Source: Candidatus Nitrosopumilus koreensis AR1
GTDB lineage: Archaea > Thermoproteota > Nitrososphaeria > Nitrososphaerales > Nitrosopumilaceae
NCBI RefSeq assembly: GCF_000299365.1
Contig: NC_018655.1
Coordinates: 90,001 to 122,000 of the forward strand
Length of the DNA stretch: 32,000 bases
Direction of reading: 5' to 3'
Shown: piece after piece, positions 236-28,452 of the stretch
Layout: every line of letters begins with the position of its first letter
Numbering within the stretch: position 1 is the first letter of the stretch
The notes under the pieces: generated by a model
Seen by the model: the letters and a program-made list of their open reading frames with translations, nothing else
Databases searched by the model: none
What the model was told of the DNA's origin: nothing
Position numbers and translations under genes: made by a program

Positions 236-281
236 GAATTTTTTTCCAAACCTCAAAATACCTGAAAAAAAGTGAATTAAT

Positions 282-1298: not shown

Positions 1299-1303
1299 TT
1301 AAA

Positions 1304-1834: not shown

Positions 1835-3066
1835 AGGATGACAACCTCTGGAATTAATACAATAAATTTTGCCCCCCATGCTCGAATTTGTTTCATTTGC
1901 TCCATGATCTCTTCCTTAAAATTCCAAGCCAAAATCAATACGTAATCTGGTTTTTTTTCAAAAATTATGTCAATTGGATATACTGGAATATTTGTTCCTG
2001 GCAGGTACAGATTCTGTTTATGGGGATTCTTGTCTACAGTGTATTCGATAAAATCAGTGCCTATTCCACAATAATTTAATAATGTATTTCCTTTGGCAGG
2101 CGCTCCATATCCTGCAATACTTTTTCCCTCTTTTTTGATTTTTATCAACAATTCTAAGATATTTTGTTTTACTTGTTCAGTTTGTTTTTGAAATTGAGGA
2201 TATTTTGAAATTTCTGCAATCCCAAATTTTATTTCTTTGGAAATTTGTTTTTCTACATTATCTGAAATCTCAAAATTTATGTTATTTTCATGTTTAATGA
2301 ATATTCTAAGTGATCCTCCATGAATTGGAATTTCTTGAACGTCAAATATGGTCATATTGTATTTTGTAAAAATTTTTTGAAGTGTAAATAAGGAAAAATA
2401 TGAAAAATGTTCATGATATATTACATCAAATTCATTTTGTTGGATTAATTGTAATAGATAAGCTGAAAATTGTATTGTAATTATTCCTTTATCTGATAAT
2501 AATATTTTTAATCCTTTCATAAAGTCATTTAGATTTGGCACATGTGGCAAAACATTAAACCCAATCAATAAATCAGCTTTTTGCCCCTCCTCAGCTAGTT
2601 TTTTTGCAGTTTCTTCTCCAAAAAATTCATTTATGGTTTTTATTCCTTTTTCATTAGCGATTTTTGCTATATTTGATGCAGGTTCAATTCCTAAAATTGG
2701 TATGTTATTTTTTTTGAAAAATTGCAATAAGTATCCGTCATTACTTGCAATTTCAATAACTTGTTTTTTTTCATCAATTTTCATTTTTTTAATTACTTCA
2801 TCAACATATTCCCTGATATGTTCCACCCATGTTGTTGAATATGAAGAAAAATATGCATAATCTGAAAATATCTGTTTTGGATTTTCAAACTCTTCTAATT
2901 GTACCAAAAAACAATTAGAACATACATATGTTTTTAGAGGATAAAATGGCTCCATTTTGTTTTTGTCTTTTAGATATGAATTTGCCATTGGTGATTTTCC
3001 CAAATCCACAAAAGATGTTTTTAATTCGTTATTACAAAATCTACATTTCATTATATTTTCATCCAA
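1831..3066 (-). CDS. NDP-hexose C-methyltransferase-like SAM methyltransferase with N-terminal zinc ribbon
   Basis: 411-aa ORF. The N-terminus CRFCNN...CSNC is a zinc ribbon, followed by a class I SAM-methyltransferase core (VIEIASNDGYLL) and a long C-terminal domain, as in the TylCIII/EvaC-type family. The start could instead be the Met at 3051. Confidence 0.7.
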   Translation of the reverse strand: MDENIMKCRFCNNELKTSFVDLGKSPMANSYLKDKNKMEPFYPLKTYVCSNCFLVQLEEFENPKQIFSDYAYFSSYSTTWVEHIREYVDEVIKKMKIDEKKQVIEIASNDGYLLQFFKKNNIPILGIEPASNIAKIANEKGIKTINEFFGEETAKKLAEEGQKADLLIGFNVLPHVPNLNDFMKGLKILLSDKGIITIQFSAYLLQLIQQNEFDVIYHEHFSYFSLFTLQKIFTKYNMTIFDVQEIPIHGGSLRIFIKHENNINFEISDNVEKQISKEIKFGIAEISKYPQFQKQTEQVKQNILELLIKIKKEGKSIAGYGAPAKGNTLLNYCGIGTDFIEYTVDKNPHKQNLYLPGTNIPVYPIDIIFEKKPDYVLILAWNFKEEIMEQMKQIRAWGAKFIVLIPEVVIL

Positions 3067-3758
3067 AGAGCTTCATTATTTATCCACATTTTTTCTAATC
3101 TATTTTTATCATTCATTGTATCCATAGGTTGATAAAATCCTGAGTGTTTATACGCCACTAATTGGCCATTTTGAACTAATTCCTTCATCGGAGTTTCTTC
3201 AAAAATTGTTAGGTCATTTTCAATATAATCAAAAATTTTGGGTTCTAAAACAAAATACCCTCCATTAACCCAATTATTATCTCCTTTTGGTTTTTCCATA
3301 AATTTGGTAACAACCTCATTTTCAATTTCTAAAACCCCGAATCTTCCTGGAGGTTGACATGCTGTAACTGTTGCAATTTTTTTATTTTTATGATGAAATT
3401 CTATTAATTTTGAAATATCAAGATCATTTAATGTGTCTCCATATGTAAAACAAAAAGTTTCTGTACAGTATTTTTTAATTTGTTTTAGTCTGCCTCCGGT
3501 CATTGTATCTAACCCTGTATCAATTATTTTTATATTCCAATCTTCTGGAAAATTTTTTTCATCTTCAAAAAATTCTATAATTTTTTCCTTTTTGTACCCT
3601 GAACAAACTATGAATTCTTTCATACCAAATAATGCATATCTGTTCATAATGTGCCATAAAATTGGTTTTCCTCCAATCTCTACCATTGGTTTTGGTTTAA
3701 CTTTGGTTTCTTCACTGATCCTAGTTCCTAATCCTCCCGCTAAAATTACTGCTTTCAA
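3051..3758 (-). CDS. rfbF: glucose-1-phosphate cytidylyltransferase
   Basis: MKAVILAGGLGTRISEETKVKPKPMVEIGGKPILWHIMNRYALFGMKEFIVCSGYK is a near-textbook RfbF N-terminus. It overlaps the downstream methyltransferase gene. Confidence 0.85.
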   Translation of the reverse strand: MKAVILAGGLGTRISEETKVKPKPMVEIGGKPILWHIMNRYALFGMKEFIVCSGYKKEKIIEFFEDEKNFPEDWNIKIIDTGLDTMTGGRLKQIKKYCTETFCFTYGDTLNDLDISKLIEFHHKNKKIATVTACQPPGRFGVLEIENEVVTKFMEKPKGDNNWVNGGYFVLEPKIFDYIENDLTIFEETPMKELVQNGQLVAYKHSGFYQPMDTMNDKNRLEKMWINNEALWMKI

Positions 3759-3806
3759 TATGCTTATTTAACCAACTAAACTCTTATTGCCTCTTTTATT
3801 AGAATT

Positions 3807-5333
3807 ATGATAAACATGGACTCTAAAGATAGTATTCTTTTCTGGATTGATAGTGTGTGGAGTCAATTTGCATTTGCAAAGTTTTTACAAGAGAAACATG
3901 ATGCTGATTTTTATGCTATTTCTGATTTAAGTATAAAAAATACTAATTTTCTAAACAAACAAAAAATTGTTACTTTTAAAAAAATTTGGCATATCCGTGA
4001 TAATCAAGAACTAAAATCTGGAAATTTAATTGATTTAAATTATCTGAAAACTATTGAAGAAAAATTCGGTATAAACATTTGGTCAATAGTATATGCTGAT
4101 CGCTATTTCTACAAGTATAATTTATATCATAATTTTTCACGAAATGAAATTCTTCAATTAGTTCAAGCTGAATGTAAACTATATGAACAAATTATTGATG
4201 AAATAAAACCTTCTTTTTTGATAATCTACCCATTTAATGATTTTAGACAGGAATTACTTTACAAAATGTGTAAAAGAAAAGGTACACGAATTATGACCTT
4301 AAGCTATACAAGAATAAATTACAAATTCATGCTTTCTGAAATCACTGATAAAACTGATCAAAAATTCATTTTTGATTCTACTGATGATGATGTACCTGCT
4401 AAATCCTTTGAAGAATTAAATGAATACTTCAAAAAGTACCCTAAAATTGTAAAACAGTATGTTAAGAATAAAAATCCTTTTAAAGAAAAATTAAAAATTG
4501 GGTTTTCTTTTTTTCTAAAAACTTACAATTCTGAATACAAAAAATTGTATCGAAATATAGGAAGAACAAGATTTAACATATTTAAAAATGAAATTAATAT
4601 AATTTATAATTCTTATTTAGTCAAAAATTTTTTTAAAAAAAATTCATTGACAAAAATTTCTTTTAAAGAAAATTTTATTTATTTTCCAATACATTTTGAA
4701 CCAGAAAGATCAATCACAGATCCTGCACTGTATTATACTAATCAAATTGAATTAATTACCCATATTGCAAAATCTTTACCTGTAGATTATTGCTTATGTG
4801 TGAAAGAACACCCTGCTCAAAGTTTAACTGGTTGGAAAAACCTTGATTTCTATAAACAAATTCATAAATTACCTAATGTCAAATTATTGCATCCAGCATT
4901 TTCTCAAGAAGATATTCTTCAAAAATGCTCTCTTGTAATAACTATTGTTGGTTCTACTGGAATGGAAGCTTTGCTTTATCAAAAACCTGTTATTACTTTT
5001 GGGGATACAATATACTCTGAAATCTCTTCTGTTAACAAAGTTACTGACATCACTACTCTTCCAGAATTAATTCAAAATTCCTTAAAACAAAAAGTCAATC
5101 TTAAGGAATTAAATGCCTTTGTTCAATTTATAGATCAAAATTCATTCGATTATGAATTCTTGGAAATACAAAAATTCATTGAAGATACTATATTTGAAGG
5201 AGGATTTTTAGATTCAGAAATTACCCATGACAAACTTAACCTTCTGTTTAAAACTCATAAATCTTCTTTCGAATTAGTTGCGAATGAATATGTCAAAAAA
5301 ATTGAATATTTTCATGATCTAAATAAAAAATAA
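3807..5333 (+). CDS. capsule-polysaccharide-biosynthesis-like protein (KpsS/KpsC-type, putative glycosyltransferase)
   Basis: 508-aa ORF. The C-terminal half (FPIHFEPERS...CVKEHPAQ...VITIVGSTGMEALLYQKPVITFGD) resembles the Capsule_synth pattern. Assignment is from motif memory only. Confidence 0.45.
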   Translation: MINMDSKDSILFWIDSVWSQFAFAKFLQEKHDADFYAISDLSIKNTNFLNKQKIVTFKKIWHIRDNQELKSGNLIDLNYLKTIEEKFGINIWSIVYADRYFYKYNLYHNFSRNEILQLVQAECKLYEQIIDEIKPSFLIIYPFNDFRQELLYKMCKRKGTRIMTLSYTRINYKFMLSEITDKTDQKFIFDSTDDDVPAKSFEELNEYFKKYPKIVKQYVKNKNPFKEKLKIGFSFFLKTYNSEYKKLYRNIGRTRFNIFKNEINIIYNSYLVKNFFKKNSLTKISFKENFIYFPIHFEPERSITDPALYYTNQIELITHIAKSLPVDYCLCVKEHPAQSLTGWKNLDFYKQIHKLPNVKLLHPAFSQEDILQKCSLVITIVGSTGMEALLYQKPVITFGDTIYSEISSVNKVTDITTLPELIQNSLKQKVNLKELNAFVQFIDQNSFDYEFLEIQKFIEDTIFEGGFLDSEITHDKLNLLFKTHKSSFELVANEYVKKIEYFHDLNKK

Positions 5334-6323
5334 CTATATCAGATTTTCTTTTTTGAGAATTGCTTTGATTTCATTTTTTGTTAATTCTGGTACTAGATCA
5401 GACGAATAATTCTCAGTTAAAATAGTACTTTTGACTTCTTTTATTGAATTATAATCATAATTTTGATTTTGTTTTTCAAAAATTATGTAATCTTTATCAC
5501 TTTCAAATGTATTCCTCAGTTCCTCTTTACTAATTAATGTCTCATGAAATTTTTCACCTGGTCTAACTGGAATTCTCTTCTCATTGTTATTGGCATTAGT
5601 TAATTCCATTATTGCTTCTTTCATTTCTTTTACTCTGTATGCTTTTAATTTTGGAACAAATACTTCTCCTCCTTTTCCATATTTCAGTGTTCTAAGAATT
5701 AGTTCTAATGCTTCATTCATACTAATATTGAATCTTGTCATACTTGGATCTGTGATTGTTATTTCTTCATTATTTTTTATCTGTGATAACATTACAGGTA
5801 AAAGAGACCCTCTGCTACCTAAGACATTTCCATATCTAACACACAAAAATTTTGTTTTACGTTTTCCTTTGTAATAATTTGCAGATACAAAAAGTCTTTC
5901 CATTAGCATTTTAGATGCTCCATAGGTATTTAGTGGTGAAACAGCCTTATCTGTTCCAATTGCTAAAGCAATATCTACATTGTTATCTAAACAACAATCA
6001 ATCAAGTTTTGAGAACCATAAACATTTGTTTTTACAGCTTCAAATGGATTATACTCAGCAGTAGCTATTTGTTTTAGAGCTGCAGTATGAATTACAATAT
6101 CTACTTCTTCAACAGCTCTTGAAAGTCGATCTTTGTCTCTTACATCTCCGATAAAAAACCTTAATCTATCATCTTGAATCTCACTTTGCATTTGTGATTG
6201 TTTCAATTCGTCTCTACTGTAAATTCGAATTGTATCTACATCTTCTTTTAATAATTTCTTTGTTAAGGCTCTTCCTAGTGAACCAGTTCCACCAGTAATG
6301 AGAATCTTTTTTCCTGCAAACAT
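5334..6323 (-). CDS. pseB: UDP-N-acetylglucosamine 4,6-dehydratase (inverting), PseB/FlaA1/CapD family
   Basis: KKILITGGTGSLGRAL...IYSRDELKQSQMQ...RLRFFIGDVRDKDRL...VIHTAALKQIATAEYNPFEAVKTNVYG...YGASK...VRYGNVLGSRGS is the PseB signature throughout. The start is placed at MFAGKKIL (6323). The ORF track allows 6374. Confidence 0.85.
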   Translation of the reverse strand: MFAGKKILITGGTGSLGRALTKKLLKEDVDTIRIYSRDELKQSQMQSEIQDDRLRFFIGDVRDKDRLSRAVEEVDIVIHTAALKQIATAEYNPFEAVKTNVYGSQNLIDCCLDNNVDIALAIGTDKAVSPLNTYGASKMLMERLFVSANYYKGKRKTKFLCVRYGNVLGSRGSLLPVMLSQIKNNEEITITDPSMTRFNISMNEALELILRTLKYGKGGEVFVPKLKAYRVKEMKEAIMELTNANNNEKRIPVRPGEKFHETLISKEELRNTFESDKDYIIFEKQNQNYDYNSIKEVKSTILTENYSSDLVPELTKNEIKAILKKENLI

Positions 6324-6415
6324 GTAATTTTGAACAAATATCCTAGTTTTATGAGTTCTCTTTTTATAGAACACTCTTCAAGAAATTATATATCTTCAAG
6401 ATTGGTATTTCCTTT

Positions 6416-8284
6416 ATGACTTCTGATTTAATCCATATTGGAGGCAACTCTATTTTGTCAGATTTGCCACAAAAAATAACTATCAAAAACCGACCCTACA
6501 TTTTAACTAAAAATCAAAATGGTAATTTGATTTTATACAGTGCGATTTGTCCTCACGCTCAAGGAATTGTTGAGCCTACTGGAAAAAAACAATGGAGATG
6601 TCCTTATCATGGATGGACTTTTGATCCAGAGACTGGAAATTCTATAGTTCCGCCAAATTCGCATTTATCTTCATATGATGTAATTGAAAAAAATGATAAA
6701 TTATTTGCTGATTTAAAATTTGTAAATAATAATATCATATCTACTAATCTACCATATCATAAAAATAATCTTAAAAGTAAATTTCCCAAAATTACATTAA
6801 TCACCCAAGCTTGTTTGTTGGTAGAATGGGATGGATTCAATCTATTAATGGATCCTTGGATTGAAGGACTTGCATTATGTGGTTCATGGACGCATTTTCC
6901 TCCTTCACAATTTACTGTTCAAAATTTACCTAAAATTGATGCAATATGGATTTCTCATGAACATAGTGATCATCTTCATCCATATACCTTATCTTTGTTA
7001 GACAAAAATATTCCAGTTTACGTACCTGATTTTGATAATGAACGACTCGGTAAAATTGTAAAAAAAATTGGATTTAAAAATGTCATATCAATGCCCCCAT
7101 TCCAATCATTTAATTTGACAAAATCTATAGAACTTATTTCATTCAAAGCTTCAATGAATTTTAGTGATAATATTCTCTATTTACGAACTGGGGAATTTAC
7201 AATGTTGAATTTTAATGATAGTGGAATTAACTGGAATATTAAAGATAAAGTTGATCATGTAGATTTGGTTTGTGCTCAATTTTCAAGATTACCCGCTACA
7301 ACTTATCCTAGTAACTGGACTCATCTAAACGAAGAAACAAAAAAACAAATTATTAAAGAAAAAAATCTTGCTTCATTAAAACAATTAAAATTATTGGTAG
7401 ATGTCTTTAAACCAGATTTTTTCCTACCTATGGCATCATTTGTAGCACTCTTCCCTCCTGAACTTTTACCATTTCAAAAAATAAAGAAGGGAATTTCTCT
7501 CAATGATGTAAAAGAACAATTCAAATCTTCAGATGTGAAGGTTTTAGACTTGATTCCTGGAGAATCATGGGATGAAAATAAAAATTTTATTTCAAGAGTT
7601 GATAGTCGAGAGAAATTCTTTGATGACGATTATTTATTATCATATCTAAAAAAAATCAATAATGATGAAACAATGACACAATTTCTCTTAACAAATGACA
7701 ATCTGACACATAATCAATTAAAAAAATATTTTTTAAATTTTAAAAATTTTGACATAGTACGTTTTATTGGAAATATGGATTTTTGTTTAACAACGTTTTC
7801 AGAAAAAAATTCCCTTTATTCTTTAATCTCGTTTAGAGATGGTGATATTATATATCAAGAATTATCAAAACCTGAAAAATGTGAACTTTCAATGTCCATT
7901 CCAATGCCAGTTGTTGCTGAAATTATTAACAATGATCTTTCATGGGATGAGGCTTTCTATTGGACAACTTTTCATAGAGATCCTGACGAATACAATTTAG
8001 CGTTCTGGAAATTTATGCATGCTCCTTGGAGATCTTTTAACAATGCAGAATGGATACAAAGTAATGATCCTAACATGTTGGGGAATGTATCTATAGCAAC
8101 ACTTGTTGAACAAGGAGGAAAATCTGTTTCAGATATTTTAGAAAAATATGGTCTGTTTTGTATAGGGTGTAGCAAATCTATTGGTGAAAATCTAAACGAT
8201 GGATGTGCTATACATGGAATTCCAAATAACAAACGATTAAAATTAATAGATGAAATCAAATCAAAAATTAAATCCTTACAATAA
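6416..8284 (+). CDS. Rieske [2Fe-2S] / metallo-beta-lactamase-fold / DUF1858-like three-domain oxygenase candidate (CMP-Neu5Ac-hydroxylase-like architecture)
   Basis: 622 aa. Rieske ligands are CPHAQG-x16-CPYHGW near the N-terminus. The MBL motif is ISHEHSDHLHP in the middle. The C-terminus (ILEKYGLFCIGCSKSIGENLNDGCAIHGI) resembles the DUF1858 / redox-disulfide domain. Confidence 0.7.
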   Translation: MTSDLIHIGGNSILSDLPQKITIKNRPYILTKNQNGNLILYSAICPHAQGIVEPTGKKQWRCPYHGWTFDPETGNSIVPPNSHLSSYDVIEKNDKLFADLKFVNNNIISTNLPYHKNNLKSKFPKITLITQACLLVEWDGFNLLMDPWIEGLALCGSWTHFPPSQFTVQNLPKIDAIWISHEHSDHLHPYTLSLLDKNIPVYVPDFDNERLGKIVKKIGFKNVISMPPFQSFNLTKSIELISFKASMNFSDNILYLRTGEFTMLNFNDSGINWNIKDKVDHVDLVCAQFSRLPATTYPSNWTHLNEETKKQIIKEKNLASLKQLKLLVDVFKPDFFLPMASFVALFPPELLPFQKIKKGISLNDVKEQFKSSDVKVLDLIPGESWDENKNFISRVDSREKFFDDDYLLSYLKKINNDETMTQFLLTNDNLTHNQLKKYFLNFKNFDIVRFIGNMDFCLTTFSEKNSLYSLISFRDGDIIYQELSKPEKCELSMSIPMPVVAEIINNDLSWDEAFYWTTFHRDPDEYNLAFWKFMHAPWRSFNNAEWIQSNDPNMLGNVSIATLVEQGGKSVSDILEKYGLFCIGCSKSIGENLNDGCAIHGIPNNKRLKLIDEIKSKIKSLQ

Positions 8285-8333: not shown

Positions 8334-9095
8334 ATGATTGGATGCATAATTCAGGCAAGAATGGGTTCAACAAGACTTCCAGGAAAAGTGCTAATGAATT
8401 TAGATAATGAACATAATTTGCTTCATTTTATTCTTAAGCAAATAGGATACTCAAAAAGTATTGATGAAATAATTATTGCAACTACAACTCTACCCGAAGA
8501 TAAACAAATTGTAAGTTTTTGTAAACAAATGAATGTCAAATATTTTTGTGGTTCAATCAATGATGTTTTGTCAAGATATTTTGAATGTGCAAAAAATTTT
8601 TCTTTAGATATTGTTGTTAGAATAACATCTGATTGTCCTCTAATTGATCCAAACATAATTGATTCACTCATAAAAATTTTCGTTGATAATGAATATGACT
8701 ACGTTTCTACTCATTTACCTAGAACTTTTCCTCAAGGAAGTGCAGATATAGAAGTTTTTTCTTTTGAAACACTAAAACATGTACATGAAAAGGCATTAAA
8801 ACCATCAGAACGAGAACATGTGACTCCTTTTATCTATAACAACCCTGACAAATTTTCTATTTATAATTATGAACACGAAACAGATTTTTCAAAATTAAAA
8901 TGGTCTGTAGATAAAAAAAATGATTTACATTTTGTACAAGAAATAGTAAAACGGATCAATGAACGTCCAATTTTAACTGCTGACATTCTTGATGTGTTAA
9001 AAAAAGAACCTGAATTAAAAAAAATCAATAAAGACCACATTCTGAATGAAGGATATAAAAAATCGTTAGAAGAAGACAAAAAATTAGGATTTTAA
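8334..9095 (+). CDS. sugar cytidylyltransferase (SpsF / CMP-nonulosonate synthetase-related, CTP_transf_3-like)
   Basis: MIGCIIQARMGSTRLPGKVL N-terminal motif and ...RITSDCPLIDP.... It lies next to nonulosonic acid synthase genes. Confidence 0.75.
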   Translation: MIGCIIQARMGSTRLPGKVLMNLDNEHNLLHFILKQIGYSKSIDEIIIATTTLPEDKQIVSFCKQMNVKYFCGSINDVLSRYFECAKNFSLDIVVRITSDCPLIDPNIIDSLIKIFVDNEYDYVSTHLPRTFPQGSADIEVFSFETLKHVHEKALKPSEREHVTPFIYNNPDKFSIYNYEHETDFSKLKWSVDKKNDLHFVQEIVKRINERPILTADILDVLKKEPELKKINKDHILNEGYKKSLEEDKKLGF

Positions 9096-9128: not shown

Positions 9129-10043
9129 ATGACTAGCAATTTTATGACCGAATCTCATTCAGGCCGAATTTTAAATGAAATCAAAAATTTTAAAATAATT
9201 GATTGTAAATCTTGTGGATTTATTCACATTTCTCCAATTCCAACAAATAGTGAATTACTGGAACTTTATCAAAAGGAATTCTTTCAACACATAAAACCTA
9301 ATGATATCAAAAAAGATGAATCAGAACTAGATTATTGGAACATTACATATGATGAAAAATTAAAAATTCTTGAAAAACATCTTAACTCTAATACCAAAAA
9401 AATATTGGATATTGGTTGTGGTGCTGGTTTTTTTCTTAAACGAGCTATGAATAATGATTGGGATACAACAGGAATAGAACCATCTGACGAGGCTGCTGAC
9501 TATGCTAACTCTTTAGGTATTAAAGTAATAAAACAATTCTTTCAAAACCTTACATCTAATGATCTTGAAACTTATGATTCAATTCATATGAGATTAGTGT
9601 TAGAACATTCTTCTTCACCTGAAGAAATAATCAAAAAATGTTATTCTTTATTGAATAAAAACGGAATATTGATTGTTGAAGTTCCTAATGATTACAATCC
9701 ATTACAAAAAATTGTTAAAACTGTTTTACAGAAAGATGAATATTGGCTTCATCCACCAATTCACATAAACTATTTCACTTTTTCCAGCCTTAGAAATCTT
9801 CTAGAAAAAAATAGATTTAATGTAATACATCAAGATACTACCTTTCCACTTGAGTTGTTTTTATTAATGGGAAATGATTACATACAAAATGAATCACTTG
9901 GTAAACAAAAACATATTGAAAGAATGAATCTAGAAATTAATTTAAACAAAGGCAATTCTGACTTAAAACAAGAACTTTATTCTAAACTTGCCGAATTAAA
10001 TCTTGGAAGAACTATTATTCTATATGCCAGAAAAATCAATTGA
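9129..10043 (+). CDS. class I SAM-dependent methyltransferase
   Basis: SAM motif I ILDIGCGAGFFLKRA, an N-terminal CKSCGF zinc-ribbon-like element, and ILIVEVPN. Confidence 0.75.
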   Translation: MTSNFMTESHSGRILNEIKNFKIIDCKSCGFIHISPIPTNSELLELYQKEFFQHIKPNDIKKDESELDYWNITYDEKLKILEKHLNSNTKKILDIGCGAGFFLKRAMNNDWDTTGIEPSDEAADYANSLGIKVIKQFFQNLTSNDLETYDSIHMRLVLEHSSSPEEIIKKCYSLLNKNGILIVEVPNDYNPLQKIVKTVLQKDEYWLHPPIHINYFTFSSLRNLLEKNRFNVIHQDTTFPLELFLLMGNDYIQNESLGKQKHIERMNLEINLNKGNSDLKQELYSKLAELNLGRTIILYARKIN

Positions 10044-10093: not shown

Positions 10094-10555
10094 TTGAACA
10101 AAATTGAATTTCGTGATGTACATGATGATGATTGGGATTTTTTAGTAAAAATTAGAAATGCTTCTCATGAACTTCATGGTAATACTTCAATTTTCACCAA
10201 GCAAGAATACAAAAAATATATTGAAAATCAACTTCTTGAAAATAAAAGTAATAGACATTGGATAATTATGTATGAAGACAAAATGATGGGTCATGCTAAA
10301 ATCATTAATCAAGTGATTGGATACATTTTTGCACCTGAATTTCAGGGCAAAGGTTTATTGAAATTTGTATTTGACAAATTTGAAACCGAAGTTGCAAAAC
10401 TTGGATATTTAACTATGTTGGGTAGAGTAAAAATCACACATCCTGTTTCACTTTGGCAATGTATGAAACACGGATGGAAAATGGTTGGTTTGGAAATGAA
10501 TGAAGATCCTGAATTGTCTGAATACAAATTATCAAAAGATATTAAGAATTCTTAA
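10094..10555 (+). CDS. GNAT-family N-acetyltransferase (PseH-like by context)
   Basis: 153-aa ORF with a TTG start. It has GNAT-like size and a ...QGKGLLKFVFDKFE... acetyl-CoA-loop-like segment. The PseH role is inferred from neighbours only. Confidence 0.55.
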   Translation: MNKIEFRDVHDDDWDFLVKIRNASHELHGNTSIFTKQEYKKYIENQLLENKSNRHWIIMYEDKMMGHAKIINQVIGYIFAPEFQGKGLLKFVFDKFETEVAKLGYLTMLGRVKITHPVSLWQCMKHGWKMVGLEMNEDPELSEYKLSKDIKNS

Positions 10556-10655: not shown

Positions 10656-11474
10656 ATGAAATCAAATTCTGTTTTTGTAATTGCTGAAGCTGGTTCTAAC
10701 TGGAGAATGGGTACTCCGGAAAGAGATCTAAAAATGGCAAAAACCTTGATTGATATTGCATCTAAATCAGGTGCAGATGCAGTAAAATTTCAAACTTATC
10801 GATCAAAAACAGTTTATGTTCCAAATGCAGGAACAGTAGATTATCTTTCAAAACGAGGAATTAAAGAATCAATTACAAAAATTTTTGATGATTTATCTAT
10901 GCCATATGAAATGATTCCTGTTTTAGCCAAGTATTGTAAATCTAAAAAAATCGAATTCATGTCTACACCATTTTCAATAGATGATGCAAAAGCAATTGAT
11001 CCTTATGTACGTCGTCATAAACTTGCTTCATCTGAAATTACTCACAGTAGATTAATTGAATTTTTAGCTAAAACAAAAAAGCCATTAATTATTTCAACTG
11101 GAGCAGCTAATTTAACAGATATTGAATGGGCAATAAACCACTTTTATTCTCATGGAGGAAAAAAACTCTATTTGTTACAAACAACAATGAAATATCCCGC
11201 ATCTTTGGAAAGCTTAAACCTTTCGGCAATTACTCATTTAAAAAATAAATTTAATTTGCCTGTAGGATTTTCTGATCATAGTGAAGACCCAGTAATTGGA
11301 CCAATTGTTGCAGTAACTCTTGGTGCTGAAATTATTGAGAAACATTTCACATTAAATAAACACTTACCTGGCCCGGACAATTCTTTTGCACTAGAACCAA
11401 ATCAATTAAAGAATATGATTGCTGCAATACATAATGCACAAAAATGTTTTGGAAAAAATAAAAAATTGTTTTAA
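10656..11474 (+). CDS. N-acetylneuraminate/pseudaminate synthase (NeuB/PseI family), catalytic TIM-barrel part; reading frame broken at 3' end
   Basis: VFVIAEAGSNW...GADAVKFQTY...ISTGAANLTDIEWAI...GFSDHS...GAEIIEKHFTL are NeuB-family motifs. The ORF stops at 11472-11474 before the expected SAF domain. Confidence 0.85.
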   Translation: MKSNSVFVIAEAGSNWRMGTPERDLKMAKTLIDIASKSGADAVKFQTYRSKTVYVPNAGTVDYLSKRGIKESITKIFDDLSMPYEMIPVLAKYCKSKKIEFMSTPFSIDDAKAIDPYVRRHKLASSEITHSRLIEFLAKTKKPLIISTGAANLTDIEWAINHFYSHGGKKLYLLQTTMKYPASLESLNLSAITHLKNKFNLPVGFSDHSEDPVIGPIVAVTLGAEIIEKHFTLNKHLPGPDNSFALEPNQLKNMIAAIHNAQKCFGKNKKLF

Positions 11475-11701
11475 AAGAAGAAAAGTATTATCAAAATTTT
11501 TCACAGAGATCACTTCAATGTATAAAACCAATTAAAAAAGGTGAAATTTTCAACGAAGGAAAAAATTTTGATATTTTACGTTCTGGTTTACAAAAGAAGG
11601 GGCTACATCCAAAATTTATTGATGAAATTGAAGGAAAAAAATCTACTAGAAACATTCCTTTAGGTGATGGAATAATGATTGATGATTATGAAAAAATATG
11701 A
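11462..11701 (+). CDS. SAF-domain C-terminal remainder of the NeuB/PseI-like synthase (-1 frame relative to 10656..11474)
   Basis: My own translation of the -1 frame gives KIVLKEEKYYQNFSQRSLQCIKPIKKGEIFNEGKNFDILRSGLQKKGLHPKFIDEIEGKKSTRNIPLGDGIMIDDYEKI*. This has the RSL...I.KGE....N...LRPG..GL......I.GK pattern of the NeuB SAF domain. There is no start codon of its own. Confidence 0.7.
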   Translation, partial: KIVLKEEKYYQNFSQRSLQCIKPIKKGEIFNEGKNFDILRSGLQKKGLHPKFIDEIEGKKSTRNIPLGDGIMIDDYEKI

Positions 11702-12295: not shown

Positions 12296-13027
12296 TTGGA
12301 TTATGAAATTATTTCAAAAGGGGAAATTGTACTTTATCATGTAATTGACGAAGATGACATTTCAAAAGAAACTATGGAACAAATCTCAGCATATTGGAAT
12401 GATTATGTAAAATCAAAAAATTCTTCTGCATTTAATGATAAAGTTCTACGATTTGTTAGATTAGATCAAAAAAACAAAAATAAAATCTTCGTTACCTTTA
12501 CAGATTATAAAAATATTATAGTTGATAGAAATTTTTTAAACTCCTCCCTTGGTTTGTATCAAGTTGGTGTCAGTGGATTATTACTTGTTCACGAACAAAA
12601 TGATACTTTTGTATTATTTGCAAAACGAAGTAACAATGTTACAGAATATCCAAATTTTTACGAATTAGTTCCTTCTGGAAATTTAGATAAATCTGTTTTA
12701 GATGAAGATGGAATTATACATTTTGATTCAAAAATTTTAGATGAATTTAAAGAAGAAACTGGCATATCTGATTCATTAATCAGCAATTCACAATCTTTTT
12801 GTTTTGTAAGAGATAACATTAATCATGTTTATGATGTCTGTTGTATACTAGAAATCAATACTGATCGAAGATTGTTTGATGATTCATTTAAAAACGTGTC
12901 AGAATTCTATTCTCCATGCTTTGTCAATATTAAAAATTTAAAAAAATTTCTTACAGACCATGTATCTGAAATTGTACCAACATCTAAAGCAATATTGGAA
13001 TGTTTTTTTGAGAAAAACAACACTTGA
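12296..13027 (+). CDS. hypothetical protein with degenerate Nudix-like box
   Basis: 243-aa ORF with a TTG start. The segment SGNLDKS...ILDEFKEETGI resembles the REUxEExGU core of a Nudix box, but the upstream Gx5E is not canonical. Confidence 0.35.
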   Translation: MDYEIISKGEIVLYHVIDEDDISKETMEQISAYWNDYVKSKNSSAFNDKVLRFVRLDQKNKNKIFVTFTDYKNIIVDRNFLNSSLGLYQVGVSGLLLVHEQNDTFVLFAKRSNNVTEYPNFYELVPSGNLDKSVLDEDGIIHFDSKILDEFKEETGISDSLISNSQSFCFVRDNINHVYDVCCILEINTDRRLFDDSFKNVSEFYSPCFVNIKNLKKFLTDHVSEIVPTSKAILECFFEKNNT

Positions 13028-13088: not shown

Positions 13089-13748
13089 ATGATATTTTTA
13101 TTTTGTGCCTATAGAGATTGGGCCTTAGAACTTTATACAAAACTTTCAAAAAAATATAAAATGAAACTAATATCTTCCCCTAAAGATTTAACTTTAAAAA
13201 ATGTAAAAAAAATCAATCCTACAATGATTTTTTTCCCTGATTGGTCTTGGATTGTACCAAAAACTATTATTCAAAATTATCCTTGTGTGTGTTTTCATGA
13301 GTCTGATTTACCAAAATTCAGAGGTGGTAGTCCGATTCAAAATCAAATTATTAATGGAATCGTTAAAACAAAAACCACCGCATTTTTCATGGATGAGGGA
13401 TTAGATACTGGAAATATAATTATGAAAAAAGATTTATCATTAAAGGGTTCTATACAAGACATCTTCCAACGAATGATCTCAAATGATTATGATATGATTA
13501 TAAAAATTATCAAAGGGAAATATAAAATTAAAAAACAAAATGGAAAACCAACAGTTTACAAAAGAAGAAAACCTGAAGATAGTGAATTAAAACATTTGAA
13601 TCATTCTACTCAATATTTGTATAATTTTATCAGAATGCTTGAAGATCCATATCCTAATGCTTTCATAAAACTTGGTACAAAGAAAATTATCTTTAAATCT
13701 GTAAAACAAAATAAAGATAAGTTGGAATTTAGAGGTGTTATTGAATGA
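13089..13748 (+). CDS. formyltransferase-domain protein (Fmt/PurN-like N-terminal domain)
   Basis: CFHESDLPKFRGGSPIQNQIINGIVKTKTTAFFMDEGLDTGNII matches the H.S.LP.yRG...G.T...m....DtG.I formyltransferase core. Confidence 0.7.
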   Translation: MIFLFCAYRDWALELYTKLSKKYKMKLISSPKDLTLKNVKKINPTMIFFPDWSWIVPKTIIQNYPCVCFHESDLPKFRGGSPIQNQIINGIVKTKTTAFFMDEGLDTGNIIMKKDLSLKGSIQDIFQRMISNDYDMIIKIIKGKYKIKKQNGKPTVYKRRKPEDSELKHLNHSTQYLYNFIRMLEDPYPNAFIKLGTKKIIFKSVKQNKDKLEFRGVIE

Positions 13749-14053
13749 AGGCTTTAGTTGTAGCAGCACATCCTGATGATGAAGTTCTAGGAATGGGTGG
13801 AACAATTAAAAAACTAACCCGTGCTGGAAATGATATCAAAATAGTTATTATGGCAACGGGAATCACTTCACGACGTTCAACAAATTATAAAAACTCAAAT
13901 TCATATGAAATTGATGAACAAACTTCTAAAACTATGAAAACACAAATTGAAAAGTTACGTCAAGATGCTATACGCTCATCAAAAATTTTAGGTGTAAAAA
14001 AATTGAATTTGAAGATTTTCCAGATAATGAAATGGATATTGTTTCAAATCTAG
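13745..14053 (+). CDS. PIG-L/LmbE-family deacetylase, N-terminal fragment (frameshifted)
   Basis: MKALVVAAHPDDEVLGMGGTIKKL is the PIG-L signature. The frame is lost in an A7 run at 13996-14002. Confidence 0.75.
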   Translation: MKALVVAAHPDDEVLGMGGTIKKLTRAGNDIKIVIMATGITSRRSTNYKNSNSYEIDEQTSKTMKTQIEKLRQDAIRSSKILGVKKLNLKIFQIMKWILFQI

Positions 14054-14463
14054 AAATCACAAAAAGGATAGAAAAATCTATTTTTGATTTTAAACCTGAT
14101 ACTGTTTTCACTCATTCACAATACGATGTTAATGTTGATCATAGAGCAATTTTTAATGCAACAATAACTGCTACACGACCAAAACAGAAATCTACCGTAA
14201 AAGAAGTAATATCATTTGAAGTTCCATCCTCAACTGAGTGGTATTTTCCATCTAGATTTTCACCAAATATCTTTGTAGATATTCACAAAGAACTTCCATT
14301 CAAATTAAAAGCATTAAAAGAATACAAAACTGAATTAGAAAAATTTCCACATCCTAGATCATTAGAATCATTAGAAATTATTTCAAAACGTTGGGGTACT
14401 GTCTCTGGTTATCTTTCTGCTGAAGCATTTTATTTAGTTAGACAATTAAAATCAAAATTTTAA
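14032..14463 (+). CDS. PIG-L/LmbE-family deacetylase, C-terminal fragment (frameshifted)
   Basis: This frame is open from 13951. From 13999 it reads KKIEFEDFPDNEMDIVSNLEI...PDTVFTHSQYDVNVDHRAI, the second conserved PIG-L block (th...D.n.DH). Confidence 0.7.
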   Translation: MDIVSNLEITKRIEKSIFDFKPDTVFTHSQYDVNVDHRAIFNATITATRPKQKSTVKEVISFEVPSSTEWYFPSRFSPNIFVDIHKELPFKLKALKEYKTELEKFPHPRSLESLEIISKRWGTVSGYLSAEAFYLVRQLKSKF

Positions 14464-14465
14464 TT

Positions 14466-15557
14466 TTATACGTATTTTGATTTATTGATATTTTTAATTA
14501 TAAAATCAACATTATTTTCTGTAAGGTTTGGATGCATTGGAATTGACACAATTTCTTTTCCAACTTCTTCAGTAATTTTCAATTTTTGTTTTTGAGCATA
14601 AAATGTCATTTTATGAATCGGATTATAATGAATTCCAGTTTCAATTCCATTACGATTCATTTCCTTCATAAATTTTTCTCTATTTTTTACTCTAATCCAA
14701 AACAAATGGTATGAACATTCATAATTAAATGGCATTTTATTTTCAACTGTAATTTCTTCACAATAACGCTTTGCAATTTTTTTACGAATTTTATTTACTT
14801 TATCTAATTTTTTAAGTTGTTTTAACCCGATTGCTGCTGAAAACTCATTCATGTAGTAATTCCAACCTAATTCCGTGATATCATATGTACTACCTTTTCT
14901 ATTTGATATTCCACACCATCTTTTTGTTAGTAAATTTTTTCTCGATTTTAAACTAGATTTGTTATTTAGAGTAATTGCCCCTCCATTAGGCATTGCCAAA
15001 TTTTTCACAGGATGAAAACTGAAACAAACTGCATCTCCATGAACTCCAATTTTCTTTTTTTTGTATGAAGCACCAGCTGCATGTGCAGCATCTTCTATCA
15101 AAATTATATTATTATCCTTACAAATTTTTTTTATTGTGTCAAGATTGCATGCCATACCACCAAAATGTACTGGTAGTATCACTCTTGTCTTTTTTGAAAT
15201 ATGGCTTTTGATATTTTCAGGATCAATACATAATGTTTTAGAATCAACATCTGCAAAAATTGGTCTCCCTCCATTGTAAACTACTGCATGTGCAGTAGAC
15301 ACAAATGATAATGAGGGTAAAATAACTTCTTTATTTTTTAAATCTATTAATGATAAGGCCAAATGCAATGCAGCAGTTCCACTATTTACTGCCACTGAAA
15401 ATTTTGAACCAATATATTTACTGAATTTTTCTTCAAATCTGTTAACATTTCCAACACCTGAGCCAGATGCCCAAAACCCACTTTTTAAAACCTGGTTAAT
15501 TACATTTTTTTCTTGTTGATCTGAATTTACTTCAAATAGTTTGATTTTTTTCTTCAA
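14466..15557 (-). CDS. DegT/DnrJ/EryC1/StrS-family PLP-dependent sugar aminotransferase (PseC-like)
   Basis: 363 aa with ...AVNSGTAALHLAL..., ...LIEDAAHAAGA..., and ...CFSFHPVKNLAMPNGGA (PLP lysine region). It lies in the cluster with the PseB-like gene. Confidence 0.8.
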   Translation of the reverse strand: MKKKIKLFEVNSDQQEKNVINQVLKSGFWASGSGVGNVNRFEEKFSKYIGSKFSVAVNSGTAALHLALSLIDLKNKEVILPSLSFVSTAHAVVYNGGRPIFADVDSKTLCIDPENIKSHISKKTRVILPVHFGGMACNLDTIKKICKDNNIILIEDAAHAAGASYKKKKIGVHGDAVCFSFHPVKNLAMPNGGAITLNNKSSLKSRKNLLTKRWCGISNRKGSTYDITELGWNYYMNEFSAAIGLKQLKKLDKVNKIRKKIAKRYCEEITVENKMPFNYECSYHLFWIRVKNREKFMKEMNRNGIETGIHYNPIHKMTFYAQKQKLKITEEVGKEIVSIPMHPNLTENNVDFIIKNINKSKYV

Positions 15558-20249: not shown

Positions 20250-20251
20250 TT

Positions 20252-20899: not shown

Positions 20900-20977
20900 A
20901 TGTTTTTCAAATAATACAAGACAATTAAATCTCTTGTAACGATTTCATCCACGCAAGTTATTTTCCGCATGCCTTTA

Positions 20978-23210: not shown

Positions 23211-23398
23211 TAGAAACCCTCCTGGATATTTTTTGTAAATGTATTTTCAAATGAAAGTTGCTCATAAATTAAAAAAGCACTGCAAGCTAGAAATGTATTT
23301 GATTTTTTTAAAAGTTTAGTTTCCCCCGCTTTCATTCCTGTAACTGGACAAACGCTGTCCAATTGACTGTCCAATAAGAAAAATTTCCACTCCGCGTA

Positions 23399-28415: not shown

Positions 28416-28452
28416 ATTCAAACAAAATCAGATCAGATTATGAGGATCATAA

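What the first reader, a model, noticed from the sequence alone, without database searches (positions are those of the whole stretch)
6416..8284. CMAH-like Rieske plus metallo-beta-lactamase protein with an extra DUF1858 domain inside an archaeal nonulosonic acid cluster
The sequence directly shows Rieske ligands (CPH-x16-CPYH), an HxHxDH MBL motif (HEHSDH) and a C-terminal CxxC...H domain resembling DUF1858. An N-terminal Rieske domain followed by an MBL-fold domain is the architecture of animal CMP-N-acetylneuraminate hydroxylase (CMAH), which converts Neu5Ac to Neu5Gc. Here the gene is divergently adjacent to pseB and directly upstream of the cytidylyltransferase. That placement suggests hydroxylation of an N-acyl group on a CMP-activated nonulosonic acid. 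The fused DUF1858-like domain could be a built-in redox partner. No such activity has been characterised in archaea, as far as I know.
Basis: partly seen in the sequence, partly recalled or inferred. Interest (0 to 1): 0.65.

Follow-up and report, generated by a model that had tools for sequence, protein, structure and literature searches.

The report
Archaeal CMAH-like sugar hydroxylase gene
This marine archaeon carries a full-length relative of the animal enzyme that turns the sialic acid Neu5Ac into Neu5Gc, with an extra small cysteine-containing domain, and the gene and its microbial relatives sit inside sialic-acid-like sugar gene clusters, so microbes probably hydroxylate these surface sugars even though nobody has shown it.

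Summary
ORF 6416-8284 (+, 622 aa) has a Rieske domain (C45-x-H47...C62-x-x-H65), an MBL-fold domain (H181-E-H-S-D-H186) and a C-terminal DUF1858-like domain (C582-x-x-C585...C597-x-x-H600).

Profile-profile comparison with 12 named vertebrate CMAH proteins gives probability 99.8 %, E 3e-30, collinear over about 490 columns. Vertebrate CMAH ends where the DUF1858 domain begins. The shared invariant residues are the four Rieske ligands plus D146, H181, H183, D185, H186, D251 and D268. The closest solved folds are the diiron MBL-fold hydroxylases CmlA and FrsH.

The link to nonulosonate genes is strong. Of 40 metagenome loci with at least 5 kb of flank, 36 carry NeuB or a CMP-sugar cytidylyltransferase, against 0 hits in 20 control loci. 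The same link holds in a Bacillota flagellin-glycosylation island, a Bacteroidota MAG and two viral contigs.

Most likely it is an O2-dependent hydroxylase of a CMP-activated nonulosonate, converting N-acetyl to N-glycolyl. The chemistry and the DUF1858 role are inferred, not shown.

Prokaryotic and archaeal CMAH homologues were already noted by BLAST (Simakov 2015, Peri 2018), and IMG already names them. The DUF1858 fusion and the conserved gene context were not described in any paper I could search. I rate it a new variant of a known kind, of moderate to high interest.

The parts
6416..8284 (+). CMAH-like hydroxylase gene, 622 aa: Rieske + MBL-fold + CMAH-type C-terminal region + DUF1858-like domain
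   Evidence: ORF and translation. Domains. Homology to vertebrate CMAH. AF2 model with pLDDT 86 and pTM 0.85.
6464..6715 (+). Rieske [2Fe-2S] domain, about aa 17-100. Ligand candidates are C45, H47, C62 and H65. There is no extra disulfide cysteine pair, so it is of the low-potential ferredoxin/oxygenase type.
   Evidence: Pfam PF00355, E 4.6e-10. The best PDB relative is the Rieske ferredoxin T4moC, E 5e-11 with the family profile. The four ligands are invariant in 114 prokaryotic and animal sequences.
6779..7450 (+). Metallo-beta-lactamase-fold domain, about aa 122-345. Conserved D146, H181-x-H183-x-D185-H186, D251 and D268 are the presumed (di)iron site.
   Evidence: Pfam Lactamase_B_3 and Lactamase_B_2. 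These residues are invariant across prokaryotes and animals. Best sequence relatives in the PDB: FrsH 8a90 at 2.4e-9, NAPE-PLD at 2.5e-9, CmlA at 7e-7. Best fold matches: CmlA at 9e-12 and FrsH.
7451..8050 (+). CMAH-specific C-terminal region, about aa 346-545. It contains the family-specific PGESW and DLSWDE motifs.
   Evidence: It aligns with vertebrate CMAH up to residue about 536. Its motifs were specific enough to retrieve 74 family loci from metagenomes.
8081..8266 (+). DUF1858-like domain, about aa 556-617, with C582-x-x-C585, E591 and C597-x-x-H600. It is absent from animal CMAH.
   Evidence: Domain and PDB hits. These residues are invariant in 28 relatives. 55 of 61 full-length metagenome ORFs carry the motif. 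In distant relatives CxxC and the His are kept but the third Cys is often Ala.
5334..6374 (-). PseB-like UDP-GlcNAc 4,6-dehydratase, divergent neighbour
   Evidence: Polysacc_synt_2, E 5.7e-92. TIGR03589 PseB at 369 bits, below the 408-bit cut-off. A PseB-like gene lies within 500 bp of the CMAH-like gene for 22 of the 45 PseB-like genes found in the metagenome loci.
8334..9095 (+). CMP-sugar cytidylyltransferase (CTP_transf_3), 49 bp downstream
   Evidence: Pfam PF02348, E 4.3e-29.
9129..10043 (+). SAM-dependent methyltransferase in the same gene string
   Evidence: Methyltransf_23, E 5.8e-23.
10656..11677 (+). NeuB-family nonulosonate synthase. In this window it is split by a single-A homopolymer indel at 11460. 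It is intact (348 aa, with SAF domain) in the sister assembly.
   Evidence: NeuB, E 5.7e-77. TIGR03569 at 257 bits against PseI at 209 bits, both below cut-off. Frameshift mapped.
13089..13748 (+). Formyltransferase-family protein, a candidate N-formyl or N-acyl transferase of the pathway
   Evidence: Formyl_trans_N, E 2.4e-15. ArnA and Fmt-type matches.
13745..14463 (+). PIG-L-family de-N-acetylase. It is split in the window by a single-A indel at 13996 and is intact (239 aa) in the sister assembly.
14466..15557 (-). PseC/LegC-like sugar aminotransferase (DegT family)
   Evidence: DegT, E 1.3e-101. TIGR03588 PseC at 284 bits, below cut-off.
3807..5333 (+). Capsule_synth / BFO_1060-like protein, a candidate nonulosonate transferase
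   Evidence: PF05159, E 1.8e-10. NF046086, E 7.4e-7. Homologues recur in related loci L001, L031 and L032.

Best explanation
The gene encodes a prokaryotic member of the CMP-N-acetylneuraminate hydroxylase (CMAH) family that works as a tailoring oxygenase of the neighbouring nonulosonic-acid pathway.

Proposed mechanism:
1. The pathway makes a 5,7-diamino-type nonulosonate. It uses a PseB-like dehydratase, a PseC-like aminotransferase, N-acyl tailoring enzymes and a NeuB-family synthase.
2. The cytidylyltransferase encoded 49 bp downstream activates the sugar as a CMP-sugar.
3. The N-terminal low-potential Rieske [2Fe-2S] cluster passes electrons to a carboxylate-rich iron site in the MBL-fold domain. 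The candidate ligands are H181, H183, D185, H186, D251 and D268, laid out as in the diiron hydroxylases CmlA and FrsH.
4. That site activates O2 and hydroxylates the methyl of an N-acetyl group, giving an N-glycolyl nonulosonate. This is the same reaction as CMP-Neu5Ac to CMP-Neu5Gc.
5. Archaea and bacteria lack the cytochrome b5 system used by animal CMAH. The fused DUF1858-like domain (conserved CxxC and His) is proposed to be the entry point or relay for reducing equivalents to the Rieske cluster.

Shown here: homology, architecture, conserved ligand candidates and gene context.
Inferred: O2 dependence, the identity of the substrate, the position hydroxylated, and the DUF1858 role.
For: Homology to CMAH:
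- Full-length collinear homology to named vertebrate CMAH: hhalign probability 99.8 %, E 3e-30, 488 columns; BLASTP E 7e-25.
- IMG annotates many homologues as CMP-N-acetylneuraminate monooxygenase.
- Rieske ligands and D146, H181, H183, D185, H186, D251 and D268 are invariant in 102 prokaryotic plus 12 animal sequences.

Oxygenase-like features:
- The closest Rieske structure is T4moC, a ferredoxin that feeds a diiron hydroxylase.
- The MBL domain is closest in sequence and fold to the diiron MBL-fold hydroxylases FrsH and CmlA.

Gene context:
- A cytidylyltransferase lies 49 bp downstream and a PseB-like gene lies divergently upstream.
- NeuB or CTP_transf_3 is present in 36 of 40 metagenome loci with at least 5 kb of flank, and both in 30 of 40. 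There were 0 hits in 20 control loci totalling 265 kb.
- The same association holds in Alkalicoccobacillus (flagellin, Maf, NeuA, NeuC, NeuB), a Bacteroidota MAG and another MAG, and a 2.7-Mb sulfur-oxidiser-like genome.
- In two viral contigs the cytidylyltransferase ORF overlaps the start of the CMAH-like ORF.

Precedents from papers:
- An N-glycolyl legionaminic acid derivative is reported in Tannerella forsythia UB4, with the modifying enzymes unknown (PMC5420450).
- Mycobacterial NamH, a Rieske plus MBL-superfamily protein, makes N-glycolyl-muramic acid from the N-acetyl form (PMC10050696).

DUF1858:
- CxxC and His are conserved across the DUF1858-bearing branch.
- A CxxU selenoprotein form of DUF1858 exists, which points to redox chemistry at that cysteine (PMC9312934).
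Against: - No biochemical data exist for any prokaryotic member.
- Identity to animal CMAH is only about 25 %, so substrate and regiochemistry may differ.
- The window's cluster looks Pse/Leg-like rather than Neu5Ac-like. All equivalog models score below their cut-offs, so the exact sugar is unknown.
- The most frequent immediate neighbour is the PseB-like dehydratase, not the cytidylyltransferase. This would also fit action on an earlier UDP-sugar intermediate.
- One 50 %-identical thaumarchaeal homologue (L003) has no NeuB or cytidylyltransferase within 10 kb.
- A whole microbial branch (530-580 aa) lacks DUF1858 yet sits in the same kind of cluster. DUF1858 is therefore not essential to the chemistry.
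- The third Cys of the motif is Ala in many members.
- A dithiol is a two-electron donor and an unusual partner for a one-electron Rieske cluster.
- The MBL domain is about equally similar in sequence to the hydrolases NAPE-PLD and SaxA.
Confidence: 0.6

Rival explanations
1. It is an oxygenase of the nonulosonate pathway, but with a different substrate or position. Options include a UDP-linked 6-deoxy-hexosamine intermediate made by the adjacent PseB-like enzyme, hydroxylation of C-9, C-3 or another ring or side-chain carbon, hydroxylation of a non-acetyl N-acyl group, or oxidative N- or O-demethylation.
For: - A PseB-like gene lies within 500 bp for 22 of 45 PseB-like genes in the metagenome loci. 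That is closer than NeuB or the cytidylyltransferase usually are.
- Identity to CMAH is only about 25 %.
- Methyltransferases recur in these clusters.
- Known Pse and Leg derivatives carry diverse acyl groups such as glyceroyl (PMC5420450).
Against: - Both characterised enzymes with this Rieske plus MBL composition, CMAH and NamH, hydroxylate an N-acetyl methyl on a nucleotide-sugar (PMC5767959, PMC10050696).
- In the viral contigs and in this window the gene directly abuts the cytidylyltransferase.
- The CMAH-specific C-terminal region, presumably involved in substrate binding, is conserved end to end.
Confidence: 0.25
2. It is a metal-dependent hydrolase of the MBL superfamily, for example a nucleotide-sugar or phosphodiester hydrolase replacing PseG or a phosphatase step. 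The Rieske and DUF1858 domains would be regulatory or structural, not catalytic.
For: - NAPE-PLD and the isothiocyanate hydrolase SaxA score as well as the diiron hydroxylases in sequence search.
- No PseG homologue was recognised in the window.
Against: - All four Rieske ligands are invariant in 114 sequences across archaea, bacteria and animals.
- The usual motif-3 and motif-5 histidines of Zn hydrolases are replaced by, or lack, conserved counterparts. The site is carboxylate-rich (D251, D268), as in iron oxygenases.
- The top fold matches are CmlA and FrsH.
- The protein is homologous over its full length to a proven monooxygenase.
Confidence: 0.05
3. The DUF1858-like domain is not an electron relay. 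It could be an iron or NO/O2-handling or repair module, like the related ScdA_N domain of RIC/YtfE proteins (my own knowledge). It could bind a metal through Cys2-His(-Glu), or it could be a docking site for an external ferredoxin or thioredoxin-like partner.
For: - Only CxxC, E591 and His are conserved family-wide, and the third Cys is often Ala.
- A DUF1858-less branch occupies the same gene context.
- TIGR03980 links the domain to hybrid-cluster-protein contexts.
Against: - The fusion is stable at the C-terminus across a branch that drops to about 28-32 % identity.
- A CxxU selenoprotein form favours redox chemistry (PMC9312934).
- Animals, which lack the domain, need an external b5 system (established knowledge, EC 1.14.18.2).
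Confidence: 0.35
4. The cluster in this genome is decaying and the gene is a relic without current function.
For: NeuB, PIG-L and the nearby PGI gene are each split by a frameshift in the window.
Against: - The three frameshifts are the only differences from assembly GCA_000328945.1 over 18.3 kb. All are single-A changes in poly-A runs, which is typical of sequencing error.
- All three genes are intact in that assembly.
- The CMAH-like ORF is intact and keeps every invariant residue.
Confidence: 0.03

Closest known systems
Animal CMP-N-acetylneuraminate hydroxylase (CMAH, EC 1.14.18.2)
   Same: - N-terminal Rieske domain, MBL-fold (Lactamase_B_3) domain with an H-x-H-x-D-H motif, and the same C-terminal region of about 200 aa. 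The two are collinear over about 490 columns.
- The same invariant ligand candidates.
- Genetic association with a CMP-activated nine-carbon sugar pathway.
   Different: - About 25 % identity.
- Shorter Rieske spacing (x14 against x18).
- Motif HEHSDH against HMHSDH.
- An extra C-terminal DUF1858-like domain, absent from all 120 listed animal proteins.
- No cytochrome b5 system is expected in the host.
- The neighbouring pathway looks Pse/Leg-like rather than Neu5Ac-like.
- The activity is untested.
Mycobacterial NamH (UDP-N-acetylmuramic acid hydroxylase, Rv3818)
   Same: - A prokaryotic enzyme composed of a Rieske domain and an MBL-superfamily (UlaG-type) domain.
- It converts an N-acetyl group to N-glycolyl on a cell-surface sugar precursor (PMC10050696, PMC2722178).
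   Different: - It acts in peptidoglycan synthesis, not on nonulosonates.
- No DUF1858 is reported for it.
CmlA / FrsH diiron MBL-fold beta-hydroxylases
   Same: - They are the best solved fold and sequence relatives of the MBL domain.
- They have the H-x-H-x-D-H motif plus carboxylates in place of the later histidines.
- They activate O2 at an iron site built on a hydrolase fold.
   Different: - They have no Rieske domain and act on carrier-protein-bound amino acids.
- They have a different N-terminal domain.
- The match covers only about 300 residues, at 17-20 % identity.
Rieske ferredoxin T4moC and canonical Rieske oxygenases
   Same: A low-potential Rieske fold with C-x-H...C-x-x-H. T4moC is the best PDB match for the Rieske domain. 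As in the toluene monooxygenase system, a Rieske centre would feed a diiron site.
   Different: Here the Rieske centre is fused to the catalytic domain. That domain has the MBL fold, not the Bet v 1-like fold with the 2-His-1-carboxylate site of canonical Rieske oxygenases.
DUF1858 (PF08984) / TIGR03980 hybrid-cluster-protein-associated redox disulfide domain
   Same: A helical domain of about 60 aa with G-L-x-C-x-x-C ... G-E ... C-x-x-H-G. It aligns with PDB 2k53 at E 9e-12.
   Different: Those domains are usually stand-alone or next to hybrid cluster proteins. Here the domain is fused to the C-terminus of an oxygenase. The window's copy scores below Pfam's gathering threshold. The function of the domain is unknown in any context.

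Membership tests
CMAH family (CMP-Neu5Ac hydroxylase, KEGG K08080-type) | N-terminal Rieske [2Fe-2S] domain with C-x-H ... C-x-x-H | tested here: met
   PF00355, E 4.6e-10. C45, H47, C62 and H65 are invariant with animal CMAH.
CMAH family (CMP-Neu5Ac hydroxylase, KEGG K08080-type) | Central MBL-fold (Lactamase_B_3) domain with an H-x-H-x-D-H motif | tested here: met
   PF13483, E 1.4e-7. HEHSDH at 181. H181, H183, D185, H186, D251 and D268 are invariant with animals.
CMAH family (CMP-Neu5Ac hydroxylase, KEGG K08080-type) | Full-length collinear homology to characterised animal CMAH, including the C-terminal region | tested here: met
   hhalign probability 99.8 %, E 3e-30, query 23-531 against template 32-559. 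BLASTP E 7e-25.
CMAH family (CMP-Neu5Ac hydroxylase, KEGG K08080-type) | Catalyses CMP-Neu5Ac + O2 + 2 e- to CMP-Neu5Gc | not testable with these tools
   Needs an enzyme assay. The gene context points to a CMP-nonulosonate, but the cluster is Pse/Leg-like.
CMAH family (CMP-Neu5Ac hydroxylase, KEGG K08080-type) | Electron supply by cytochrome b5 and b5 reductase | not tested
   No b5 gene was seen in the window, but the rest of the genome was not examined. The fused DUF1858 domain suggests a different arrangement.
Nonulosonic-acid biosynthesis gene cluster (accessory tailoring gene) | Conserved co-location with the NeuB-family synthase and the CMP-sugar cytidylyltransferase across distant genomes | tested here: met
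   36 of 40 metagenome loci with at least 5 kb of flank, and 30 of 40 with both genes. Control: 0 of 20 loci. Also L001, L004, L005, L006, L030-32, L035, L110 and L111. Exceptions: L003 and four metagenome loci.
DUF1858 / TIGR03980 redox-disulfide domain | Sequence match to the domain model, with a conserved CxxC | tested here: inconclusive
   The window copy is below the curated cut-offs: PF08984 at 20.1 against 32.2 bits, TIGR03980 at 34.9 against 44.95 bits. Homology is nevertheless clear: 2k53 at E 4.9e-7 for the single sequence and 9e-12 for the profile. Many relatives have a precomputed PF08984 hit. CxxC is invariant.
Canonical Rieske non-heme iron oxygenases (alpha subunit) | C-terminal Bet v 1-like catalytic domain with a 2-His-1-carboxylate mononuclear iron site | tested here: not met
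   The catalytic part has the MBL fold. Only the Rieske domain matches oxygenase alpha subunits.
CmlA-type diiron MBL-fold hydroxylases | MBL fold with H-x-H-x-D-H plus carboxylate ligands forming a diiron site | tested here: inconclusive
   They are the top fold and sequence relatives, and the window protein has a 3-His/3-carboxylate candidate set. The alignment beyond motif 2 is weak, and metal content cannot be computed.

The most novel reading that the evidence does not exclude
Marine ammonia-oxidising archaea and many marine bacteria, and some of their viruses, make N-glycolyl or otherwise hydroxylated nonulosonic acids. They would do so with a self-sufficient CMAH whose fused DUF1858 CxxC domain replaces the animal cytochrome b5 system as the route for electrons. 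This DUF1858-bearing microbial enzyme would represent the ancestral stock from which the algal and deuterostome Neu5Gc-forming enzyme was derived. If so, the textbook statement that prokaryotes do not make N-glycolyl sialic-acid-type sugars would be wrong, and DUF1858 would gain its first assigned function.
Probability: 0.25. Interest if true: 0.75.

Novelty: new variant of a known kind. Interest (0 to 1): 0.55.

Why it matters
- Field assumption. CMAH is studied almost only as the animal enzyme behind the Neu5Gc xenoantigen. The field states that prokaryotes do not naturally make Neu5Gc (PMC7845648).
- Size of the microbial family. There are 358 clusters at 50 % identity with E <= 1e-30. The family is embedded in nonulosonate gene clusters of archaea, bacteria and viral contigs. 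This predicts a whole class of hydroxylated microbial sialic-acid-like sugars that mass spectrometry could look for directly.
- Unknown enzymes. It offers a candidate for the enzyme behind reported N-glycolyl Leg derivatives (PMC5420450).
- Experimental access. A soluble microbial enzyme would be a tractable model for CMAH, which has no solved structure.
- DUF1858. It gives a testable function for this domain.
- Evolution. It bears on the proposed horizontal origin of deuterostome CMAH (PMC5767959).

Tried and rejected
1. Genome-contig scan with the full-length alignment. Only 4 full-length homologues were found. I reused the unrelated loci as a context control. For the metagenome scan I switched to an alignment of the family-specific C-terminal region.
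2. The Nocardia locus L013 was checked as a possible NamH. It holds two tandem MBL-only proteins without a Rieske domain, so it was dropped.
3. The idea that the cluster is a pseudogenised relic was rejected. The three frameshifts are single-A homopolymer differences that are absent from a sister assembly.
4. Supplementary table S1 of Peri et al., listing the prokaryotic hits, is not held. I could not check whether this genome was among them.
5. Organism name. A search for the assembly accession prefixes found nothing. There is no tRNA in the window. NCBIfam and Pfam scans of the right-hand ORFs gave no archaeal hallmark. The Nitrosopumilus assignment therefore rests on my memory and on synteny with contig L003.
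6. No model coordinates are available. The distance between the DUF1858 cysteines, the Rieske cluster and the MBL site could not be measured.
7. No paper in the library contains both 'Rieske' and 'pseudaminic'.
It was then replaced by database proteins, which it matched at 97 % identity.
Full report
**The observation**

ORF 6416-8284 (+) is an intact 622-aa reading frame. Pfam finds three domains:
- a Rieske domain at residues 17-86, E 4.6e-10;
- MBL-fold domains (Lactamase_B_3 and Lactamase_B_2) at residues 125-206, about 1e-7;
- a sub-threshold DUF1858 match at residues 571-603, E 6.7e-4.

The C-terminal domain is confirmed by TIGR03980 (E 1.2e-8) and by the solved DUF1858 protein 2k53. The 2k53 match is E 4.9e-7 for the single sequence and 9e-12 for a family profile.

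The motifs are CPH at 45, CPYH at 62, HEHSDH at 181, CIGC at 582 and CAIH at 597. The neighbours are as described. A PseB-like dehydratase is divergent upstream. A CTP_transf_3 cytidylyltransferase starts 49 bp downstream. After it come a methyltransferase, NeuB, a HAD hydrolase, a formyltransferase, a PIG-L deacetylase and a DegT aminotransferase.

**Is it CMAH-like?**

Yes, over its whole length. A database search returned 204 relatives of about 610 aa at 40-86 % identity. Many of them are named 'CMP-N-acetylneuraminate monooxygenase' by IMG.

It matched named rodent CMAH at 97 % identity and returned 120 named vertebrate CMAH proteins.
- A profile of 28 prokaryotic relatives against a profile of 12 vertebrate CMAH gives hhalign probability 99.8 %, E 3e-30. 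It covers 488 aligned columns, from residue 23 to about 536 of the window protein and 33-560 of a 577-aa CMAH.
- BLASTP of the window protein against Sarcophilus CMAH gives 24 % identity, E 7e-25.
- In a joint alignment of 102 prokaryotic and 12 animal proteins the invariant residues include C45, H47, C62 and H65 (Rieske). They also include D146, H181, H183, D185, H186, D251 and D268 (MBL site).
- Vertebrate CMAH stops about 20 residues after the shared region, and none of the 120 carries PF08984. The DUF1858 domain is therefore a real addition.

**What kind of catalyst?**

There is no solved CMAH structure. The evidence points to an oxygenase:
- The Rieske domain is closest to T4moC, the Rieske ferredoxin that reduces a diiron hydroxylase. 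It lacks the extra cysteine pair of high-potential Rieske proteins (read directly from the sequence).
- The MBL domain's best solved sequence relatives are FrsH (8a90, 'non-heme diiron monooxygenase', 2.4e-9), NAPE-PLD (2.5e-9), SaxA and CmlA (7e-7).
- An AlphaFold2 model built on 114 sequences is confident, with pLDDT 86 and pTM 0.85. Its best fold matches in the PDB are CmlA (9e-12), NAPE-PLD and FrsH.
- The conserved ligand candidates are three histidines and three aspartates. None of the later histidines typical of zinc hydrolases is conserved.

This fits an iron oxygenase built on the MBL fold. It is an inference, not a measurement.

**Gene context elsewhere**

- Close and mid-distance relatives sit beside PseB-like, DegT, NeuB and CTP_transf_3 genes.
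- One thaumarchaeal relative at 50 % identity (L003) does not.
- For numbers, I scanned metagenome contigs with an alignment of the family-specific C-terminal region and got 74 loci. I then searched their ORFs with small HMMs for NeuB, CTP_transf_3, DegT and PseB.
- Of 40 loci with at least 5 kb of flanking DNA, 36 have NeuB or CTP_transf_3 and 30 have both. All 40 have at least one of the four families.
- Twenty unrelated MBL loci (265 kb) from the earlier genome scan have none.
- The loci are not all independent, but their identity to the query ranges from 25 to 54 %.

The link also crosses phyla:
- In Alkalicoccobacillus murimartini the homologue (32 % identity, with DUF1858) lies in a flagellin-glycosylation island. 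The island holds flagellin, a Maf-type transferase, a methyltransferase, an ATP-grasp protein, the CMAH-like gene, then NeuA, NeuC and NeuB.
- A Bacteroidota MAG and another MAG show NeuB next door.
- A DUF1858-less homologue in a 2.7-Mb genome ends a NeuB-NeuC-methyltransferase-cytidylyltransferase string.
- Two IMG/VR viral contigs carry NeuB, a cytidylyltransferase and the CMAH-like gene in a row. The last two ORFs overlap.

**The family as a whole**

An exhaustive profile search of 1.84 billion cluster representatives finds 358 with E <= 1e-30. They fall into two tiers:
- Proteins of about 600-650 aa that match the profile to its end and so have the C-terminal domain.
- Proteins of about 530-580 aa that match only to about position 526. 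These have 'CDH...CPLH' Rieske motifs and HNHPDH, and no DUF1858.

Within the first tier the CxxC and the histidine are kept throughout, but the third cysteine is often alanine. In the closer marine relatives 55 of 61 full-length ORFs have the complete CxxC-x(8-14)-CxxH.

**Which sugar?**

The window's dehydratase and aminotransferase score best against PseB and PseC. The synthase scores best against NeuB/NnaB. All are below the equivalog cut-offs. No hydrolysing 2-epimerase is present. The product is probably a 5,7-diamino-tetradeoxy-nonulosonate of undetermined stereochemistry, with formyl, acetyl and methyl tailoring. Other loci have NeuC-type epimerases. The family is therefore not tied to one nonulosonate type.

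**Literature**

- Peri et al. (PMC5767959), citing Simakov 2015, report BLAST hits to CMAH in two green algae and about 60 prokaryotes 'including archaebacteria'. They give no analysis of context, domains or function.
- A Varki-lab paper states that prokaryotes do not naturally synthesise Neu5Gc (PMC7845648).
- Mycobacterial NamH, which makes N-glycolyl-muramic acid, is described as an MBL-superfamily (UlaG) domain plus a Rieske domain (PMC10050696). It is the nearest characterised prokaryotic analogue. I could not compare it by sequence.
- DUF1858 has a CxxU selenoprotein form (PMC9312934), which hints at redox chemistry.
- No paper in the library contains both 'Rieske' and 'pseudaminic'.

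**Verdict**

This is a bona fide CMAH-family protein with an added DUF1858-like domain, and it is embedded in a nonulosonate cluster. The association is conserved far beyond this genome.

The most likely function is O2-dependent hydroxylation of an N-acetyl group on the CMP-activated nonulosonate. Electrons would pass from the Rieske cluster to an iron site in the MBL fold (confidence about 0.6). The DUF1858 domain as electron entry is plausible but weakly supported, and it is dispensable in one branch.

The existence of prokaryotic homologues is already known and auto-annotated. The finding is therefore a new variant of a known kind rather than a new system. It is still worth an experiment, because it predicts an undescribed class of microbial sugars and offers a soluble model for CMAH.

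**Status of this copy**

NeuB, PIG-L and PGI are frameshifted in the window. The only three differences from assembly GCA_000328945.1 over 18.3 kb are single-A changes in poly-A runs at 11460, 13996 and 16165. All three genes are intact in that assembly. The cluster should be regarded as functional.

Noticed in passing
window 11460, 13996, 16165: Three genes are each split into two ORFs: the NeuB synthase, the PIG-L deacetylase and a bifunctional PGI/SIS isomerase. The only three differences from NCBI assembly GCA_000328945.1 over 18.3 kb are single-A indels in poly-A runs at exactly these sites. All three genes are intact in that assembly. GCA_000328925.1 shares the window's version. These are probably homopolymer sequencing errors, though phase variation is not excluded.
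   Followed up: yes
L007 8717-12506 (Helicobacter sp. 10-6591, NZ_NHYK01000031.1): The CMAH-like gene is split into a 119-aa Rieske ORF and a 486-aa MBL ORF. It lies next to a CgtA-type beta-1,4-GalNAc transferase and a CST-I alpha-2,3-sialyltransferase. This looks like a lipooligosaccharide ganglioside-mimicry locus, and raises the possibility of Neu5Gc-type mimicry in an animal-associated Helicobacter. Whether the split is real is unknown.
   Followed up: partly
L110 660-4733 and L111 4617-8696 (IMG/VR contigs UViG_3300029319_000082 and UViG_3300030430_004029): Two contigs classed as viral (35 and 51 kb) carry NeuB, a CTP_transf_3 cytidylyltransferase and a CMAH-like gene with a DUF1858-like C-terminus, in a row. 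The last two ORFs overlap. The module may be carried by viruses or mobile islands.
   Followed up: partly
L004 4447-14734 (Alkalicoccobacillus murimartini DSM 19154): The homologue (617 aa, 32 % identity, with DUF1858) sits in a flagellin-glycosylation island. The island holds flagellin, a Maf-type transferase, a methyltransferase, an ATP-grasp protein, the CMAH-like gene, then NeuA, NeuC and NeuB. This is a culturable aerobic bacterium in which the function could be tested genetically.
   Followed up: partly
proteins P0322-P0388; locus L035 10001-11683: A second microbial branch of the family (530-580 aa) lacks the DUF1858 domain. It has 'CDH' Rieske and HNHPDH motifs. One member ends a NeuB-NeuC-methyltransferase-cytidylyltransferase operon in a 2.7-Mb genome that also encodes SoxY and SoxA.
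   Followed up: partly
proteins P0261 (719 aa) and P0276 (776 aa): Two family members have N-terminal extensions of about 140-155 residues before the Rieske domain, with no Pfam match.
   Followed up: no
window 1304-3758 (-) and 282-1298 (+): A second sugar module holds an RmlC-like 3,5-epimerase, a C-methyltransferase (Methyltransf_13/14), a nucleotidyltransferase and an epimerase/dehydratase. It is conserved with the same order in thaumarchaeal contig L003, even though L003 lacks the NeuB genes. It probably makes a C-methylated deoxysugar.
   Followed up: partly
window 20000-24000 and 26387-31383: GC content rises from about 28 % in the glycosylation island to 40 % at 20-24 kb. Large ORFs there (593, 354, 284 and 756 aa) match no Pfam or NCBIfam family. 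A PIN-domain protein, an RNase H-like protein and a VRR-NUC/Holliday-resolvase-like nuclease lie at 26.4-28.0 kb. This may be a mobile element or an orphan gene island.
   Followed up: no
window 10094-10555 and 12296-13027: Two ORFs inside the nonulosonate gene string (153 and 243 aa) have no family match in Pfam or NCBIfam. One could be the missing nucleotide-sugar hydrolase (a PseG analogue) or an acyltransferase.
   Followed up: no
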